From the IMG/VR virus record IMGVR_UViG_3300044825_003153, positions 6,928-70,927 of that record: a stretch of 64,000 nt of DNA, one strand, 5' to 3'. The position numbers were made by a program, and so were the translations under genes. Below the pieces are notes generated by a model. That model was given only the letters and a program-made list of their open reading frames with translations, ran no database searches and was not told the DNA's origin. Origin of the DNA: a virus. This document shows, one piece after another, positions 49,145 through 64,000 of this stretch (the stretch's first letter is position 1; each line of letters opens with the position of its first letter).

Positions 49145-49694
49145 TTTTCAACCCATGCGCCTACCCTTCCCTTGCCCTTCGGGGCGGGGCGGAGCCATCG
49201 GGCTCCCCTCCCTTCCCCTCCCCTCCGGGGGCGGGGGCGCTCTTTGAACCCAACCGGCCGCCCGCGAACTACCCGGGCCTAGGCTTGCCCCTAGGAACCG
49301 CTGGCGCGGGCAACATCGACTCCCATGGGCAAGGTCCGACCATCCGGCCATCCGGCCATCCGGTCACCTCCCCGCCCGGGCGTTTCGGCGATCCGGCGAT
49401 CCCCAGCTAGGGATAGCGAGTTCTGAATCCAGTAGGAAACGCGGCACCTAGTATCGCATCGGCTAGATTGTACGAAACACAAGCGATGGCCTTTGATCGT
49501 TCTAATCGTATGGTTTCCTAGCGCAAGTCACCCAATGCAAGATTGGGCAAAAGCGCGCTCCTAACCGTTGCTTTCTCACGTTGCACACTACGGGGCGTCC
49601 GTCGGGCATTAGTCCGGCGGGCGTTCCCGCATGTCTCGACCAAGTCGGGCCATGCGGGAGCGCTTCGCTCCCTTCCCAGCAACGGAGAGAGAAC

Positions 49695-49898
49695 ATGTCG
49701 AACGGCGCCAAGATCCAGGTGCGCGTCAAGCAGCTCCATCGCAAAGGCGACTACGCCAGGCGGTGGGCACGCGGTCAGCTCACGTTGGCCGGTCAAGCCA
49801 CGCTGCGCGAGCGTCGCACCTCGGAATATCAGGCGGCGACCGAGCAGCTCAGGCGCGAGGTCGAGTTCTGGAACGGCAATCTGGCGTTCACGGTGTAA
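49695..49898 (+). CDS. Small basic hypothetical protein
   Basis: ATG after a leader box. Confidence 0.7.
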   Translation: MSNGAKIQVRVKQLHRKGDYARRWARGQLTLAGQATLRERRTSEYQAATEQLRREVEFWNGNLAFTV

Positions 49899-49903
49899 CG
49901 GCC

Positions 49904-50035
49904 ATGTGGATGGTCGTGATCACCAAGCCGTCCGGCGAGAGCCGCACGGTCTACACGCCAAGTGCCAAGCGAGCCCATCGGTATCTCAACCGTCGCCGGA
50001 GCAATCCGGCGGTGGTTGTCCGGCGGCTCTTCTAG
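49904..50035 (+). CDS. 43-aa hypothetical protein
   Basis: Fills the gap up to the next leader. Confidence 0.45.
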   Translation: MWMVVITKPSGESRTVYTPSAKRAHRYLNRRRSNPAVVVRRLF

Positions 50036-50117
50036 CAAGTTCACCTGGAACCGTCCCGCGCGAGACGCGGGGCGGTTCATGGTGCATTTGCACCGTCCAG
50101 CAACGGAGGAAGTTGAA

Positions 50118-50732
50118 ATGGCGAAGATCAAGACGATCGAGACCGCGGGCGAGGCCCGGCTGTCGCTGCGCGCGCTGAAGGCGACCCGCAGCAAGGTCGA
50201 GCCGCTCCTGACCTCGACCGAGAAGCGGTATCGCGATGAGGCGCAGCTGAAGATCACGACGATCGACAAGAAGATCGCCGATCTTGTGCAGCGCTTCCCC
50301 GAGATCCAGCAGTCGCAGGCCGCGAAGAAGCCCGTGCGCGACGAGCTCACCGGCAAGATCGAGGTCGACCGGCAGCTGGTCCTGCAGCGTCTGCAGGCGT
50401 GCGACGATGCCATCATGGCTGAGGTCGCGCGAATCTTCGCGAGCCACGCGAGCCGGAAGGCCCTGGAAGCCGCCCAGGCGGTGATCACGGGCGCCGGCGA
50501 GGTCGAGAGCGAGAGCGAGGGCGAGCCCCAGCAGCAGACCGATGGCGGTGCCATCCTGATGCTGCCGGCGCCCACGGTCGAGACGACCGAGATCCAGGGC
50601 GATGTCGAGGATGGCCTCGTGATCGAGGGCACTTCGGAGGTCGTGGATGAGATCGAGCAGCCCGCGCCGGCGGCGCCCGAGAGGGCCCCGAGCCGTCGCG
50701 AGCGTCGGGAGGCCCGTCGTCGGGCCGCCTAG
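50118..50732 (+). CDS. Coiled-coil hypothetical protein
   Basis: ATG after a leader box. Its C-terminal GLVIEGTxEV matches the RecT tail. Confidence 0.75.
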   Translation: MAKIKTIETAGEARLSLRALKATRSKVEPLLTSTEKRYRDEAQLKITTIDKKIADLVQRFPEIQQSQAAKKPVRDELTGKIEVDRQLVLQRLQACDDAIMAEVARIFASHASRKALEAAQAVITGAGEVESESEGEPQQQTDGGAILMLPAPTVETTEIQGDVEDGLVIEGTSEVVDEIEQPAPAAPERAPSRRERREARRRAA

Positions 50733-50826
50733 CGCAGATGCAGCTAGGGCAGCCGTGCCGCTCACCAGCGGGCGGCTGACCCGATGGTGCACCTGTAGCG
50801 CACCGCTCCCAGCAACGGAGGAAGCT

Positions 50827-51024
50827 ATGCAGAACCTGAAGATCACGACGAACGGCACCAAGGTGACGCTCGAGTTCGACACGTCGAAGCCGGCCCAGCA
50901 GGCCGCCAAGCTGTCGAGCACCGGCAAGACCAGGCTGCTCGCCGGCACCGGCGGGGCCTCCCCGGTCGACGTCCCGGGCTGCCCGGGGCTGAAAGTGGCC
51001 CTGAACGTCATGATCCCGGCCTAG
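50827..51024 (+). CDS. Small conserved beta protein (SxxGKTxLxAxTGG family)
   Basis: SSTGKTRLLAGTGG motif, after a leader box. Confidence 0.75.
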   Translation: MQNLKITTNGTKVTLEFDTSKPAQQAAKLSSTGKTRLLAGTGGASPVDVPGCPGLKVALNVMIPA

Positions 51025-61892: not shown

Positions 61893-62755
61893 CGGTGTCA
61901 GGACGCGACCTGGTCCCCAAGGAGACGATCGAAGAGCTGCTGCTGCACCGGCAGCGGGCGCTCGAGAAGTTCGCCGAGGCGGCCGAGGCCATGGCCGCCG
62001 CCGGCGACGCCGCCCGGCGTGCGATGCCGGGCCAGCACTTCAGCCTGACCGAGCAGCAGCTGAGCTACTGCCCGCAGGGCAACCACGCCACCAGCACGCG
62101 GCGCAGCCGCGAGGAGTGGATGGCCGTGGTCCGGCGCGAGCTCGACCTGCGCCTGTGGGAGCACCTGATCACCCGGTCGCGCCTGACCGAGGTCATGGAC
62201 CACAAGGCCAGGACCGAGTTCCGCGACAGCCTGCGCGGGCACCAAGCCGTGATCCCCGAGTGCACCCTGGAGTCGGTCCAGGCGACCCTGTTCGCGCACA
62301 TCAGCCAGGCCGAGGAGGTCCTGAAGCGCGGGGTCAAGACGCTGTTCCACCAGCTGCACCCGCGGTTCAAGACCCACGACCCGTTCAAGTACGGTCACCG
62401 GTTCATCGTCAACGGGATGTTCTCGGTGTCGAAGTGGAGGGACGGCGCGCACCTCAGCCGCGGCTATGGCTGGCGGGACGAGCAGCTCGTCGATCTTGAG
62501 CGGATCCTCTACGTGCTCGACGGCAAGCCGCCGCCGGAGCACGTCGCGACGTTCTGGGCTCGGCTCAACGCCGCGCACCCGACCCTGACCAAGGCGCCGA
62601 TGGAGTTCGAGGACGACTACCTGCACATGCGGTGGTTCCTCAACGGCAACGCCCACGTCCGGATCAAGCGGGACGACCTGGTCGACCGCATCAACGCCAT
62701 CCTCGCCGAGGACGGCGGTATCCCCGATGGTACCCAGCATGGGAGGGCTGCCTGA
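61889..62755 (+). CDS. DUF4942-like protein
   Basis: ELDLRLWEHLI...FTLESVQATLF..., DLERILYVLDGK, YLHMRWFLNGNAHV. Confidence 0.65.
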   Translation: MTVSGRDLVPKETIEELLLHRQRALEKFAEAAEAMAAAGDAARRAMPGQHFSLTEQQLSYCPQGNHATSTRRSREEWMAVVRRELDLRLWEHLITRSRLTEVMDHKARTEFRDSLRGHQAVIPECTLESVQATLFAHISQAEEVLKRGVKTLFHQLHPRFKTHDPFKYGHRFIVNGMFSVSKWRDGAHLSRGYGWRDEQLVDLERILYVLDGKPPPEHVATFWARLNAAHPTLTKAPMEFEDDYLHMRWFLNGNAHVRIKRDDLVDRINAILAEDGGIPDGTQHGRAA

Positions 62756-63081
62756 TGCCCCGTTTCCGCGTGTCCTACACCTTCGTCGACACGTTCCAAG
62801 GCGACGTGAAGGCGATCGCCTCGGCGGTCCGCGACCTGTTGTTCTCGACCAGCTTCAACCCACAAGACCTCAATGACTGGGGAGTGTTTCTGCGACAGGA
62901 TGGGACCTTCCGGCTCGAGGCCAAGCGCACGCTGGTCGACGAGTTCATGGAGACCAGCGAGCGCGCCGCGCTGCGCAAGTTCCTCTACGGCATGGACTTG
63001 CCCGACACGATCGACGTGAAGGCGATCAAGATCGAGTGCCTGACCGAGGAGCCGGCGCCGGCGACCGAGGTCGCGGCATGA
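62755..63081 (+). CDS. Hypothetical protein
   Basis: TGATG coupling. Confidence 0.6.
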   Translation: MPRFRVSYTFVDTFQGDVKAIASAVRDLLFSTSFNPQDLNDWGVFLRQDGTFRLEAKRTLVDEFMETSERAALRKFLYGMDLPDTIDVKAIKIECLTEEPAPATEVAA

Positions 63082-63395
63082 GCCCGCCGCTTCCTCGCCG
63101 TGCCCCGAGCGTCTCGCTCCGGGGCTACGACGGGGTGGACCTGGGTGTGCACCGGCTGACCAGCTCGCAAACGCTGTCGCTGGTGGCGCTCGCGGGCGCC
63201 GGCGACAAGGCGCGGGTGTCGATGCGCGGCGTCGGCATCGTGCATGTCGGCGACAAGCGGATCGGGTCGCCCGACCCGGCCGTCTGGCTCAGGCTGGTAG
63301 CGCTCGGGCTCGTAGAGGGCGCCGACGGCCAGATATGGACCACGCCCGACGGCGATGCTCTCGTCCAAGAATGGGTCAAGGCCGCCCAGGCCTAG
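63078..63395 (+). CDS. Hypothetical protein (possible wHTH)
   Basis: ATGA overlap; WLRLVALGLVEG...WTTPDG. Confidence 0.6.
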   Translation: MSPPLPRRAPSVSLRGYDGVDLGVHRLTSSQTLSLVALAGAGDKARVSMRGVGIVHVGDKRIGSPDPAVWLRLVALGLVEGADGQIWTTPDGDALVQEWVKAAQA

Positions 63396-63412
63396 CCCCT
63401 CCCCTGCCCCAC

Positions 63413-63448
63413 GGCCCACGGAATCCCGCGATTTCGTGGGCCCTTTTT
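63413..63448 (+). terminator. Rho-independent terminator
   Basis: GGCCCACG/CGTGGGCC stem followed by CTTTTT. Confidence 0.7.
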
Positions 63449-63497
63449 CGTGGGCCTCACCATCCCAGCAACCCGTACCCCAGCAAGGACCCCACTG

Positions 63498-64000
63498 ATG
63501 TCTCAAGCACTCGACAATGTCGTGGCGATTGCGCACGACGTCGCCTTCCGCCGCGTCCAGGCATGGCGCGAGGACGGCAAGATGCACGGCAGCGTCGACG
63601 ACGCCCGCCTGCTGCAGAAGCTGCTGCTCCTGTTCGCCGCCGAGGCAGCCGATACCTTCGGCGCCGGCTTTGACGCCCGTTCGCCGATCTCCCGCGGCAC
63701 GATGGAGCACTTCGCGAAGGCGCTGCGCGAGCGGGCGGCCGAGATCCCCGTCGAGGGCGAGAACCTCGATTGGCGGGTCGGCAAGTCGCCGGCCTCCCCG
63801 GCGGCACCCCAGGCCGAGCCTCCGGCCCGCCAGTGGCGGCAAGGCTCGCCGCCGGAAGATCCGGACCTGCTGATCGAGGTCCAGACGACCGAGATCTACC
63901 GGTTCCGCCACTACAAGCCGGACGGCGCGCGGCAGATGGGCAAGCCCGGCCGCTGGCAGAAGCTCAACCCCTACGGCGGGTTCGACAACGCCGAGCTCGT
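63498..64000 (+). CDS. Hypothetical protein, runs off the window edge
   Basis: Manual translation MSQALDNVVAIAHDVAFRR..., open to 64000, preceded by two CCCAGCAA boxes. Confidence 0.65.
   Translation, partial: MSQALDNVVAIAHDVAFRRVQAWREDGKMHGSVDDARLLQKLLLLFAAEAADTFGAGFDARSPISRGTMEHFAKALRERAAEIPVEGENLDWRVGKSPASPAAPQAEPPARQWRQGSPPEDPDLLIEVQTTEIYRFRHYKPDGARQMGKPGRWQKLNPYGGFDNAEL

What the first reader, a model, noticed from the sequence alone, without database searches (positions are those of the whole stretch)
49620..63500. Array of gene cassettes, each headed by a conserved, covarying two-hairpin leader
Seen: about 16 intergenic gaps of 75-100 nt share one architecture. Upstream stop, box A (CCCAGCTAG or a variant), a variable GC hairpin, a conserved [AC]TGGTGC-loop-GCACC hairpin, box B (CCCAGCAACGGAG, which contains the RBS), then the start codon. 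Examples: 52304-52392, 53122-53201, 57598-57681, 59357-59442. Hairpin 1 changes sequence but keeps its pairing. Hairpin 2 shows a compensatory swap to GGAGC..GCTCC (about 60608-60632) and GGGAGCG..CGCTCCC (about 49657-49673), which argues for selection on a folded single strand. Boxes A and B both start with CCCAGC, so they form a direct repeat around the hairpins. Established analogies: PeSL elements that shuffle cassettes in T4-type phages, SAS/ESAS in cluster K mycobacteriophages, and RNase III sites in the T7 early mRNA. I recognise no named family with this sequence. Inference: a phage-wide RNA element for processing, translation or antitermination, or an ssDNA element, that may also serve as a recombination hotspot turning these genes into exchangeable cassettes.
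Basis: partly seen in the sequence, partly recalled or inferred. Interest (0 to 1): 0.92.

Follow-up and report, generated by a model that had tools for sequence, protein, structure and literature searches.

The report
Two-state RNA junctions between phage genes
Between the small early genes of an uncultured freshwater phage sits a repeated 80-95 base module that folds on the message strand in two competing shapes and ends in a fixed ribosome-binding leader, and genes have been gained or lost next to it; its function is untested.

Summary
In 49.6-63.5 kb of a 70.9-kb siphovirus-like contig there are nine full copies of one intergenic module. Five more copies are divergent or partial, and two gaps keep little beyond box B.

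The "loop" of hairpin 2 covaries with the 5-7 bases just after the upstream stop codon. Together with box A opposite GGTGC, this forms an outer helix, P1, that encloses hairpin 1. P1 and hairpin 1 are strongly supported by compensatory changes. Hairpin 2 (GGTGC/GCACC) excludes P1, hardly varies, and is often close to P1 in predicted energy.

Four related metagenomic phages carry the same module. Rfam 15 has no match. Against the closest relative, homology breaks at the leaders.

My best reading is a cis-acting mRNA junction that serves processing, stability and translation initiation, working like the phage T7 RNase III sites joined to a start-associated sequence. Recombination between copies would be a by-product. 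No RNA data exist, so the mechanism is inferred.

Earlier notes of this scan describe the same kind of junction in other uncultivated phages (e1-3443044, e1-3427802). I class it as a new variant of a known kind.

The parts
49618..49694 (+). Leader 1, a divergent copy ahead of the first gene of the array. It has the strands CCCGCATG, CATGCGGGAGCG and CGCTCCC, then box B at 49676-49687.
   Evidence: (E 2.4e-5); orthologous to L106:8217-8296
50036..50117 (+). Canonical junction (TCACC variant of box A); start codon at 50118.
50733..50826 (+). Canonical junction with a 9-nt hairpin 2 loop; start codon at 50827.
51025..51121 (+). Canonical junction (TCACC variant; box B ends GGAT with GGAG 1 nt on); start of the DUF932 gene at 51122.
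52304..52392 (+). Canonical junction, used as the reference copy. P1 5' strand 52304-52317; hairpin 1 52320-52351; GGTGC 52355-52359; covarying loop X' 52360-52364; GCACC 52365-52369; box B 52374-52385; ATG 52393.
   Evidence: (90.3 bits)
53122..53201 (+). Canonical junction. The P1 5' strand overlaps the upstream TAG stop codon.
53793..53865 (+). Partial copy: hairpin 1, GGCACC and the box B variant CCAGCAACAGGAC. It is followed by a short stretch (53866-53940) that is conserved in L106.
   Evidence: E 0.2
53941..53989 (+). Partial copy: GGTGC, a 13-nt loop, GCACC and box B at 53972-53983; start codon at 53990.
   Evidence: E 0.003
54392..54491 (+). Atypical gap ahead of the DUF5131 gene: a GC hairpin, an AT-rich stretch with the only sigma-70-like site (54429-54457), and the box B variant CCAGCAACCGGAGG.
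55640..55719 (+). Canonical junction (box A is ACGCAGG; GGGTGC).
57160..57245 (+). Canonical junction (X is CCGACCG and X' is CGGTTGG, giving 7 pairs).
57585..57681 (+). Canonical junction (box B is CCAGCAACGGGAC). It is the only copy whose P1 starts more than 1 nt after the stop codon.
59357..59442 (+). Canonical junction (X is CCGAGT and X' is ACTCGG).
60570..60659 (+). Divergent copy. TTCCG, CGGAGC and GCTCC keep the two-state layout with changed letters. There is no box B.
61036..61110 (+). Partial copy: hairpin 1 plus GGTGC-GTTCGT-GCACC, followed by a T-run (terminator-like, 61086-61102).
   Evidence: E 0.009
63396..63497 (+). A terminator-like hairpin (63413-63442) followed by two degenerate box B copies (63465, 63480); start codon at 63498. 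Conserved in L106:11317-11383.
6942..6953 (+). Box B variant (CCAGCAACCGGAG) before an early or middle gene outside the array. Further variants lie at 2798, 8975 and 11477 (+) and at 11115-11126 (-).
   Evidence: 6910-6963, E 0.026

Best explanation
Each leader is a cis-acting junction on a long early polycistronic mRNA.

Shown by the sequences:
1. In 8 of 9 full copies, the 12-14 nt that begin 0-1 nt after the upstream stop codon pair with GGUGC plus 4-6 variable bases X'. These 12-14 nt are a variable stretch X followed by box A (CAGC or CACC). The pairing forms helix P1. Most copies have a G.G mismatch opposite CAGC.
2. P1 stacks on the variable GC-rich hairpin 1 across a small internal loop. 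The result is an irregular hairpin of about 20-23 bp.
3. The P1 3' strand can instead pair with the invariant GCACC to form a 5-bp hairpin 2. The two folds exclude each other and are within about 1-2 kcal/mol in several copies.
4. A single-stranded, C/A-rich box B (CCCAGCAACGGAG) follows. It carries the Shine-Dalgarno core 6-10 nt before an ATG.

Inferred:
- The P1-hairpin 1 fold is a recognition signal for a double-strand-specific endonuclease such as host RNase III, as at the T7 early intercistronic sites.
- After a cut, or after the terminating ribosome has melted the P1 5' strand, hairpin 1 would cap the upstream message. Hairpin 2 would snap shut as a 5' cap of the downstream message. Box B would give every gene, whatever its origin, the same unstructured initiation region.
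- Because the same 20-40 nt recur about 16 times in one orientation, they would also serve as short homologies for the phage's RecT-type recombinase. That would make the units between them easy to gain, lose and swap.
For: Structure:
- P1 on a plain MAFFT alignment of the 9 window copies: 97.1% of cells pair against 85.9% in shuffles. Ten cells change on both sides against 3.1 expected. None of 500 shuffles reaches the observed value, and the slid controls score 0.13 or less against 0.458. RNAalifold predicts P1 plus hairpin 1, not hairpin 2.
- P1 on 16 copies from 4 phages: 93.6% paired against 75.9%, 20 double-change cells against 4.8, 0 of 500 shuffles.
- Alignment-free test: each copy's own flanks pair better than flanks taken from other copies (-10.6 against -7.7 kcal/mol, permutation p = 0.0004).
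- Hairpin 1: 13 of 13 pairs show double changes.
- The message strand is the one that folds. Stems hold 26 G-U against 9 A-C. The sense strand is 3.5 kcal/mol more stable than the antisense strand (p = 0.03).

Two states:
- Alternative folds lie within 0.2-1.8 kcal/mol in copies 50036, 51025, 59357, 60570, L467:1194 and L470:2473.
- Divergent copies keep the three-strand layout with changed letters. Window 60570 and L106:8217 use GGAGC with GCUCC or UUCCG. L470 uses GUGGG with CCCAC on both sides.

Position:
- All copies point with the genes and fill the gap between stop and start.
- Box B occurs before non-structural genes only.

Relatives:
- The model finds the module in L106, L467/L468 and L471 at E 1e-7 to 5e-6.
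- It finds none in the rest of the binned genome. In 140 related genomes it finds one lone hit that lacks the GCACC strand, box B and neighbouring homologues.

Recombination:
- Against L106, homology stops right after box B. L106 8215-8289 equals window 49615-49689, and then L106 runs straight into DUF932, whereas the window has 4 extra genes and 3 leaders. L106 9693-9848 equals window 53840-53995, followed by unrelated genes. In a third case homology starts at a leader's 5' end (window 63405).
- Only 5 of 29 array genes have homologues in the 9 relatives.
- The phage has a RecT gene at 2755-3930.
- An RNase III gene is present in the bin.
Against: - There is no RNA evidence at all. No public run on record as RNA holds the sequence, and the laid contigs say nothing about RNA ends.
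- Hairpin 2 is nearly invariant, so it is supported mainly by conservation. Its few compensatory changes may go back to one or two events.
- The alignment A3 was fitted to the model's structure, which favours P1. The checks are free of that bias.
- The Shine-Dalgarno core is unpaired in both states, so the switch has no obvious read-out.
- RNase III cleavage is an analogy based on size and shape. No sequence rule was tested.
- At least one synteny break against L106 lies at a junction without a leader, 3' of the gene at 59443. Phage mosaic joints fall at gene borders in any case.
- The bin's assignment as host is not proven.
Confidence: 0.5

Rival explanations
1. Box B, with or without hairpin 2, is the binding site of a phage-specific trans-acting factor on the mRNA. 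The factor could be a translational repressor or activator, an endoribonuclease, or a small antisense RNA. It would switch all early genes together, as T4 RegA and RegB do. The hairpins would only present the site.
For: - A 13-nt string that is invariant well beyond the GGAG core is not needed for ribosome binding.
- Each phage lineage has its own consensus: window and L106 use CCCAGCAACGGAG, L467 uses CCAACCAGCAACAGGAG, and L470 uses GGGAAAGGATG.
- Pope et al. left the same possibility open for SAS (PMC3203893).
- An 8-nt complement of box B, CCGTTGCT, lies at 49565 in the early promoter/leader region.
Against: - No candidate RNA-binding protein was recognised among the array proteins. Most have no Pfam match.
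- The complement at 49565 is short and is not conserved in L106.
- A lineage-specific consensus can also arise from concerted evolution by recombination.
- This rival is compatible with the main explanation rather than exclusive of it.
Confidence: 0.17
2. The conserved letters are DNA sites for a phage DNA-binding regulator, as proposed for ESAS and shown for the stoperators of cluster A mycobacteriophages. GGTGC-N-GCACC would be an inverted-repeat operator and box B an asymmetric site. A bound regulator would block or start transcription at every gene boundary.
For: - The hairpin 2 arms are conserved in sequence rather than covarying.
- The sites are asymmetric, in one orientation, intergenic, and absent from the rest of the binned genome, like stoperators and SAS.
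Against: - The spacing of the two half-sites runs from 4 to 9 nt, and to 13-14 nt in partial copies. That is hard to reconcile with a dimer on duplex DNA.
- The "spacer" itself covaries with a stretch 50 nt upstream, which duplex DNA binding does not explain.
- G-U outnumbers A-C in stems.
- No repressor or integrase was recognised in the parts of the contig scanned.
Confidence: 0.1
3. The module is a folded single-stranded DNA recombination site, analogous to integron attC, or a miniature mobile element. It would move gene cassettes by site-specific recombination or transposition, and any effect on expression would be secondary.
For: - It is an imperfect hairpin with a conserved core between variable, covarying helices, and it recurs at cassette borders.
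- Gene gain and loss occur at the borders.
- Box A and box B share CCAGC and could be read as flanking direct repeats.
Against: - There is no tyrosine recombinase on the 70.9-kb contig, and no transposase was recognised.
- The outer arms X/X' are unique to each copy, unlike the terminal inverted repeats of a mobile element.
- The strict coupling to stop codon, Shine-Dalgarno core and ATG, and the co-orientation with the genes, point to mRNA.
- The element is absent from the rest of the genome.
- The breakpoints lie in box B, outside the folded part.
Confidence: 0.05
4. The hairpins are passive insulation. They would be stable structures that stop Rho from loading on about 90 nt of untranslated RNA, or stop 3' exonucleases, as REP elements do. 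The alternative hairpin 2 would be a by-product of a conserved leader copied around by recombination, with no switch and no processing.
For: - The gaps are almost fully structured.
- Hairpin 1 can have any sequence.
- More distant relatives have plain GC hairpins at the same places.
Against: - This reading does not explain the conserved CAGC/GGUG core with its G.G mismatch.
- It does not explain why three strands change together in divergent copies.
- It does not explain why the two folds are so often close in energy.
Confidence: 0.13

Closest known systems
Start-associated sequences (SAS) and extended SAS (ESAS) of cluster K mycobacteriophages (Pope et al. 2011, PMC3203893) and cluster EF Microbacterium phages (Jacobs-Sera et al. 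2020, PMC7302621)
   Same: - A 13-nt asymmetric repeat contains the Shine-Dalgarno core, lies a few nt before mostly ATG starts, and has 10-19 copies.
- It occurs only among non-structural genes, in one orientation, in gaps over 50 bp, and is absent from the host.
- About half the copies have an inverted repeat with a variable spacer just upstream.
- The consensus differs between phage lineages, and the function is unknown.
   Different: - The sequences are unrelated (GGGATAGGAGCCC or GGGAAAGGACCCC against CCCAGCAACGGAG).
- The hosts are Actinobacteria, against a 68% G+C genome bin here.
- For ESAS the authors found that departures do not support RNA pairing and favoured DNA binding. Here two helices covary strongly, and the inverted repeat competes with a longer helix.
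RNase III processing signals of the phage T7 early polycistronic mRNA (R0.3, R0.5, R1, R1.1, R1.3); from my own knowledge of Dunn and Studier's work, not re-read here
   Same: - Repeated intercistronic irregular hairpins of about two helical turns with an internal loop lie between early genes of one long transcript.
- The copies are related to each other.
- The cut leaves a 3' hairpin on the upstream message.
   Different: - Cleavage was not tested here.
- The T7 sites carry no fixed ribosome-binding leader and no described alternative hairpin.
- There is no sequence similarity.
PeSL (promoter-early stem-loop) cassettes of T4-type phages (Arbiol et al. 2010, PMC2839356; Comeau et al. 2014, PMC4122927)
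   Same: - A repeated intergenic motif runs from the upstream stop codon to the downstream Shine-Dalgarno sequence and start.
- It is concentrated among small non-essential genes of unknown function.
- Recombination between copies explains insertions, deletions and replacements between related phages.
   Different: - PeSLs are defined by a strong sigma-70 promoter plus a terminator stem-loop.
- The canonical leaders here have neither a promoter-like site nor a T-run.
- The covarying P1 5' strand requires read-through transcription from upstream.
Integron attC sites
   Same: A structured imperfect hairpin, conserved in fold more than in sequence, recurs at cassette borders.
   Different: - No integron integrase or any other tyrosine recombinase is on the contig.
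- No R''/R' core (RYYYAAC/GTTRRRY) was seen.
- The conserved part is inside the hairpin, not at its ends.
- The module carries the ribosome-binding site of the next gene.

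Membership tests
SAS (start-associated sequence) | A 13-bp asymmetric repeat holding the Shine-Dalgarno core, 3-8 nt before start codons, with many copies in one orientation | tested here: met
   Twelve copies of CCAGCAACGG[AG][GAT] lie 6-10 nt before an ATG, all on the + strand.
SAS (start-associated sequence) | Restricted to non-structural genes and absent from the host genome | tested here: met
   No copy lies before a virion gene in 14.3-48.2 kb. Outside contig C110 the bin has only chance single matches.
SAS (start-associated sequence) | Sequence homology to the actinophage consensus GGGATAGGAGCCC or GGGAAAGGACCCC | tested here: not met
   Apart from the GGA(G) core the consensus is different. 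This is an analogue, not a homologue.
ESAS | A pair of imperfect 17-bp inverted repeats with a 4-13 bp spacer just upstream of the SAS, whose departures do not support RNA pairing | tested here: not met
   The inverted repeat here is 5 bp. Its spacer pairs with a distant stretch, and the helices covary.
PeSL | A strong sigma-70-type early promoter inside the motif | tested here: not met
   The only promoter-like site in 48-64 kb is at 54429-54457, in the atypical gap. The scan uses the E. coli consensus, so other promoter types are not covered.
PeSL | A stem-loop acting as a transcription terminator or attenuator | tested here: inconclusive
   Stable GC stem-loops are present, but only the copies at 61036-61110 and 63396-63497 are followed by a T-run. 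Termination cannot be tested here.
T7-type RNase III processing signal | An intercistronic irregular hairpin of about two helical turns with an internal loop | tested here: met
   P1 (8 pairs plus 2 mismatches), a small internal loop, and hairpin 1 (11-13 pairs), supported by covariation.
T7-type RNase III processing signal | Cleavage by RNase III in vivo or in vitro | not testable with these tools
   No RNA run holds the sequence. An RNase III gene exists in the bin.
Integron attC | An adjacent IntI-type tyrosine recombinase and conserved R''/R' core sites | tested here: not met
   PF00589 has no match on contig C110. The conserved letters are CAGC/GGTGC/GCACC, not RYYYAAC/GTTRRRY.
Rfam families (release 15) | A match to any of 4227 covariance models | tested here: not met
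   There are no matches at gathering thresholds over the window. At E <= 1 over 48-64 kb there is only one chance miRNA hit.

The most novel reading that the evidence does not exclude
The junction is a ribosome-actuated relay. P1 starts at the stop codon, so every ribosome that finishes the upstream gene melts the P1 5' strand. That flips the RNA from the P1 fold to hairpin 2. The flip decides whether the downstream cistron is initiated or the RNA is cut. Any gene dropped between two junctions would then be wired automatically into one chain of coupled expression. This would be a generic plug-in interface for swappable phage genes, and it would recur, with different letters, in several families of uncultivated phages.
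Probability: 0.15. Interest if true: 0.85.

Novelty: new variant of a known kind. Interest (0 to 1): 0.62.

Why it matters
Repeated start-associated motifs in phage early regions have been known since 2011 without a mechanism, and for the published cases RNA structure was judged unlikely.

Here the upstream part clearly folds on the message strand. It has two competing states, it begins at the stop codon, and relatives keep the same three-strand layout with different letters. That gives a concrete, testable model for how phages express long arrays of small, rapidly exchanged early genes of mostly unknown function. It also offers a compact natural part for building polycistronic constructs: a 3' cap, a 5' cap and a standard ribosome site in about 85 nt.

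If the recombination role holds, it also explains how such arrays turn over. Only 5 of the 29 genes here are shared with nine relatives.

Tried and rejected
Searches for more copies:
- An exact scan for TCCCAGCAACGGAG in IMG/VR gave 85 contigs, each with a single match and no array.
Among all loci fetched up to then, only L106 had an array.
- Box B in 100 related genomes gave only 0-3 chance matches each.
- Model R1 in 140 related genomes gave one lone hit (G103). It lacks the GCACC strand, box B and any neighbouring homologue, so I rejected it.
- R1 found nothing in the more distant relatives L107, L469, L470, L480-L482, L094 and L095. By eye, L470 and L482 have junction repeats of their own.
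- Annotated phages (INPHARED) gave only short gene-level matches, with no relative.

RNA and population evidence:
- No run on record as RNA holds the stretch.
- Laying four DNA runs showed short identical contigs, so the same phage is present at low depth in freshwater, sediment and activated sludge. The joints had sides of only 20-42 nt and none lay at a leader. I do not count this as evidence either way.

Other readings considered:
- Sigma-54 promoter: TGGCAC-N5-...GC occurs in one copy only and in the wrong register (read).
- Caulobacter-type -10 element (GCTANAWC, from my own knowledge) in box A: an exact match only at 59367-59374, with no conserved -35. Not supported, but not excluded by the tools.
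- Intrinsic terminators: no T-run follows hairpin 1 or hairpin 2 in the canonical copies.
- An antisense complement of box B elsewhere in the genome: only the 8-mer CCGTTGCT at 49565, 2345, 11117 and 44636. The 11117 site is itself box B of a minus-strand gene. The 49565 site is not conserved in L106.
- The box B match on contig C171 lies inside overlapping coding sequence and has no hairpins.

Full report
SETTING

The window is the reverse strand of bases 16-64015 of a 70,943-bp contig in a 3.7-Mb, 68.8% G+C, 297-contig genome bin. The source is a freshwater metagenome.

The contig is phage-like. The minus strand of 14.3-48.2 kb encodes a portal, a MuF/Acb1-like protein, an HK97-type capsid, a tape measure and a gpJ-like tip protein. 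The rest encodes RecT, an exonuclease-like protein, TerB, RusA and a ParB-like protein. No tyrosine recombinase gene lies on the contig.

From 49.7 kb to the contig end, about 29-31 small plus-strand genes form one array. Only five have a Pfam match above the curated cutoff: DUF2786/DUF7168, DUF5131, HNH and DUF4942, plus DUF932 just below its cutoff.

CCAGCAACGGAG occurs nine times exactly, all on the plus strand within 8 kb, with three near-variants. Five are divergent or partial, and two keep little more than box B. The GGAGC/GCTCC and GGGAGCG/CGCTCCC variants are at the stated places.

Box-B-like strings (CCAGCAAC, 0-1 nt, GGAG) also precede plus-strand starts at 2798, 6942, 8975 and 11477, and one minus-strand start at 11112. 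None precedes a virion gene. This agrees with another first-reader note on this window (e1-5351994).

When each gap was folded, the minimum-energy structure often did not contain hairpin 2. Instead a long-range helix closed hairpin 1. The 4-6 nt "loop" of hairpin 2 (X') is complementary, copy by copy, to the bases just 5' of box A (X):

| Copy | X | X' |
|---|---|---|
| 53122 | AGAGC | GCTCT |
| 57585 | TGAGC | GCTCA |
| 59357 | CCGAGT | ACTCGG |
| 57160 | CCGACCG | CGGTTGG |
| 51025 | GGAGT | ACTTC |
| 50036 | CAAGT | ATTTG |

Box A (CAGC, or CACC in two copies) lies opposite GGTG. In most copies this gives C-G, A-U, a G.G mismatch, then C-G.

I tested this helix, P1, in three ways.
- Alignment-free test: each copy's own flanks form a better duplex than flanks taken from other copies (-10.6 against -7.7 kcal/mol, permutation p = 0.0004).
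- Plain MAFFT alignment: RNAalifold predicts P1 plus hairpin 1. The pair counts give 97.1% pairing against 85.9% in shuffles and 10 double-change cells against 3.1. None of 500 shuffles reaches the observed value, and the slid controls score far lower.
- Sixteen copies from four phages: 93.6% against 75.9%, 20 double-change cells against 4.8, 0 of 500 shuffles. This alignment was fitted to the model and leans towards it.

Hairpin 1 covaries at all 13 pairs. Hairpin 2 pairs in 96% of cells but almost never varies. It has one double change, and 23 of 500 shuffles reach it.

TWO STATES

P1 and hairpin 2 share the strand GGTGC, so they exclude each other. In several copies the best P1-type and hairpin-2-type folds differ by only 0.2-1.8 kcal/mol.

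The layout is a 5' strand, hairpin 1, a middle strand, then a 3' strand, in which the middle strand can pair with either neighbour. Divergent copies keep this layout with changed letters:
- Window 60570 has UUCCG, CGGAGC and GCUCC.
- L106:8217 has CGCUCC, GGAGCG and GCUCC.
- Window 49618 has CCCGCAUG, CAUGCGGGAGCG and CGCUCCC.
- L470 has CCCAC, GUGGG and CCCAC.

This is the best argument that hairpin 2 is real. The number of independent events behind it is small, however.

In 8 of 9 canonical copies P1 begins 0-1 nt after the upstream stop codon, or overlaps it (read). From general knowledge of the ribosome's mRNA channel, a terminating ribosome must open the P1 5' strand.

WHICH STRAND FOLDS

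Stems hold 26 G-U against 9 A-C oppositions. The sense strand folds 3.5 kcal/mol better than its complement (Wilcoxon p = 0.03). Every copy points the same way as the genes and fills the space between stop codon and ribosome-binding site. Together these favour the mRNA.

RELATIVES

No annotated phage is close. I searched with the DUF932 protein and fetched contigs from the hits.
- L106 (68% protein identity) carries the same box B and hairpins.
- L467/L468 (50%) and L471 (56%) carry the same architecture with lineage-specific letters (GGGTGC-loop-GCACC; CCAACCAGCAACAGGAG).

The covariance model built from the window copies finds these at E 1e-7 to 5e-6. It finds nothing in more distant relatives or elsewhere in the bin. 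In 140 related genomes it finds only one lone, unconvincing hit. Rfam 15 has no match even at E <= 1.

CASSETTE TURNOVER

Only 5 of 29 array proteins have homologues in nine related loci, and those five keep their order.

Against L106:
- Leader 1 is conserved up to box B (L106 8215-8289 equals window 49615-49689). L106 then continues with DUF932, whereas the window has four more genes and three more leaders before DUF932. The extra segment is therefore bounded by box B copies.
- The stretch 53840-53995, including a leader, is conserved up to box B and followed by unrelated genes.
- The leader at 63405-63470 and its downstream gene are conserved behind unrelated upstream genes.
- One break, 3' of the gene at 59443, lies at a junction without a leader.

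This fits recombination between leader copies, for which the phage's RecT would suffice. But it rests on one relative, and gene borders are favoured joints in phages anyway.

MECHANISM

Shown: a message-strand fold with two alternative states, anchored at the stop codon and followed by an invariant, unpaired ribosome-binding leader.

Inferred: the P1-hairpin 1 stalk has the size and shape of the T7 early RNase III signals, namely about 20-23 bp, a small internal loop and a conserved core between two freely varying helices. A cut on its 3' side would leave hairpin 1 on the upstream RNA. It would also free GGUGC-X' to close with GCACC as a 5'-terminal hairpin on the downstream RNA, next to box B. 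The bin has an RNase III gene.

Alternatively, or in addition, the terminating ribosome toggles the fold. Neither step can be tested here. No RNA run holds the sequence, and the one laying of DNA contigs was uninformative.

The rivals are listed with their evidence in the report sections: a trans-factor on box B RNA, DNA operators, attC-like ssDNA sites, and passive insulation.

COMPARISON WITH KNOWN SYSTEMS

Box B meets every positional criterion of SAS, but it is unrelated in sequence and host. The upstream part differs from ESAS in that it does support RNA pairing. PeSL membership fails for want of a promoter and a terminator. attC membership fails as well.

Follow-up notes of this scan (e1-3443044, e1-3427802) describe "two-state RNA junctions" between genes of other uncultivated phages, with the same three traits: a start at the stop codon, two exclusive folds, and swapped cassettes. 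I found P1 and hairpin 2 before reading those notes, and I could not compare sequences. They are not independent evidence, but they suggest the design is widespread.

VERDICT

This is a real, strongly covarying and uncatalogued intercistronic RNA module. It is a new variant that combines features of SAS and of T7-type processing hairpins. Its function is untested.

Noticed in passing
window 48385-49060: A tract of about 680 bp of irregular CAGGGCCTC and CCCCT repeats with strong strand bias. It lies in the apparently non-coding 1.4 kb between the small gene beside the terminase and the early array. It may be a packaging or replication region.
   Followed up: partly
window 53721-53990; L106:9466-9851; L471:4854-5083: A mini-module conserved across three phages. 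It holds a small hydrophobic reading frame, a GC hairpin, a box-B-like string, then ATGGCGG followed by about 45 nt (window against L106: 76% identity, CGCCACCGAAAAGA shared), and finally a leader copy. It could be a short upstream ORF or a small RNA running into the next junction.
   Followed up: partly
window 49565-49585: Two CGTTGC motifs and CTTTCTC lie upstream of leader 1. In the minimum-energy fold they pair with box B and with the Shine-Dalgarno/spacer region of the first gene. This may be a cis anti-SD. It is not conserved in L106.
   Followed up: partly
window 54392-55639: The DUF5131 and HNH endonuclease genes sit behind an atypical, AT-richer gap. That gap holds the only sigma-70-like site of the region (TTCTCA-17-TACAAT, 54429-54457). 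It looks like a separately acquired, self-promoted insert.
   Followed up: no
window 41795-43495: A MuF-like head protein carries an Acb1-like (anti-CBASS) domain at residues 231-294 (Pfam E 3.7e-8).
   Followed up: no
window 2755-3930: A RecT-family single-strand annealing protein. The 304-aa gene before it has no Pfam match and could be the partner exonuclease.
   Followed up: no
L470:2473-5754 and L482:997-3494: More distant relatives have junction repeats of their own. L470 has CCGCCTGA[CA]GAG, a hairpin, GAAAC, a hairpin, CGCGG..CCGCAC, then GGGAAAGGATG. L482 has CGTAGAAGC next to hairpins. Some copies show the same three-strand alternative pairing.
   Followed up: partly
window 49300-64000 in runs X3-X6: Short contigs identical to the window occur at low depth in sediment, activated-sludge and further freshwater metagenomes from other studies. 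The phage, or a near-identical one, is therefore widespread.
   Followed up: partly
window 61086-61102 and 63413-63442: These are the only two plus-strand hairpins in the intergenic gaps of the array that are followed by a T-run. They are probable ends of transcription units within the array.
   Followed up: no
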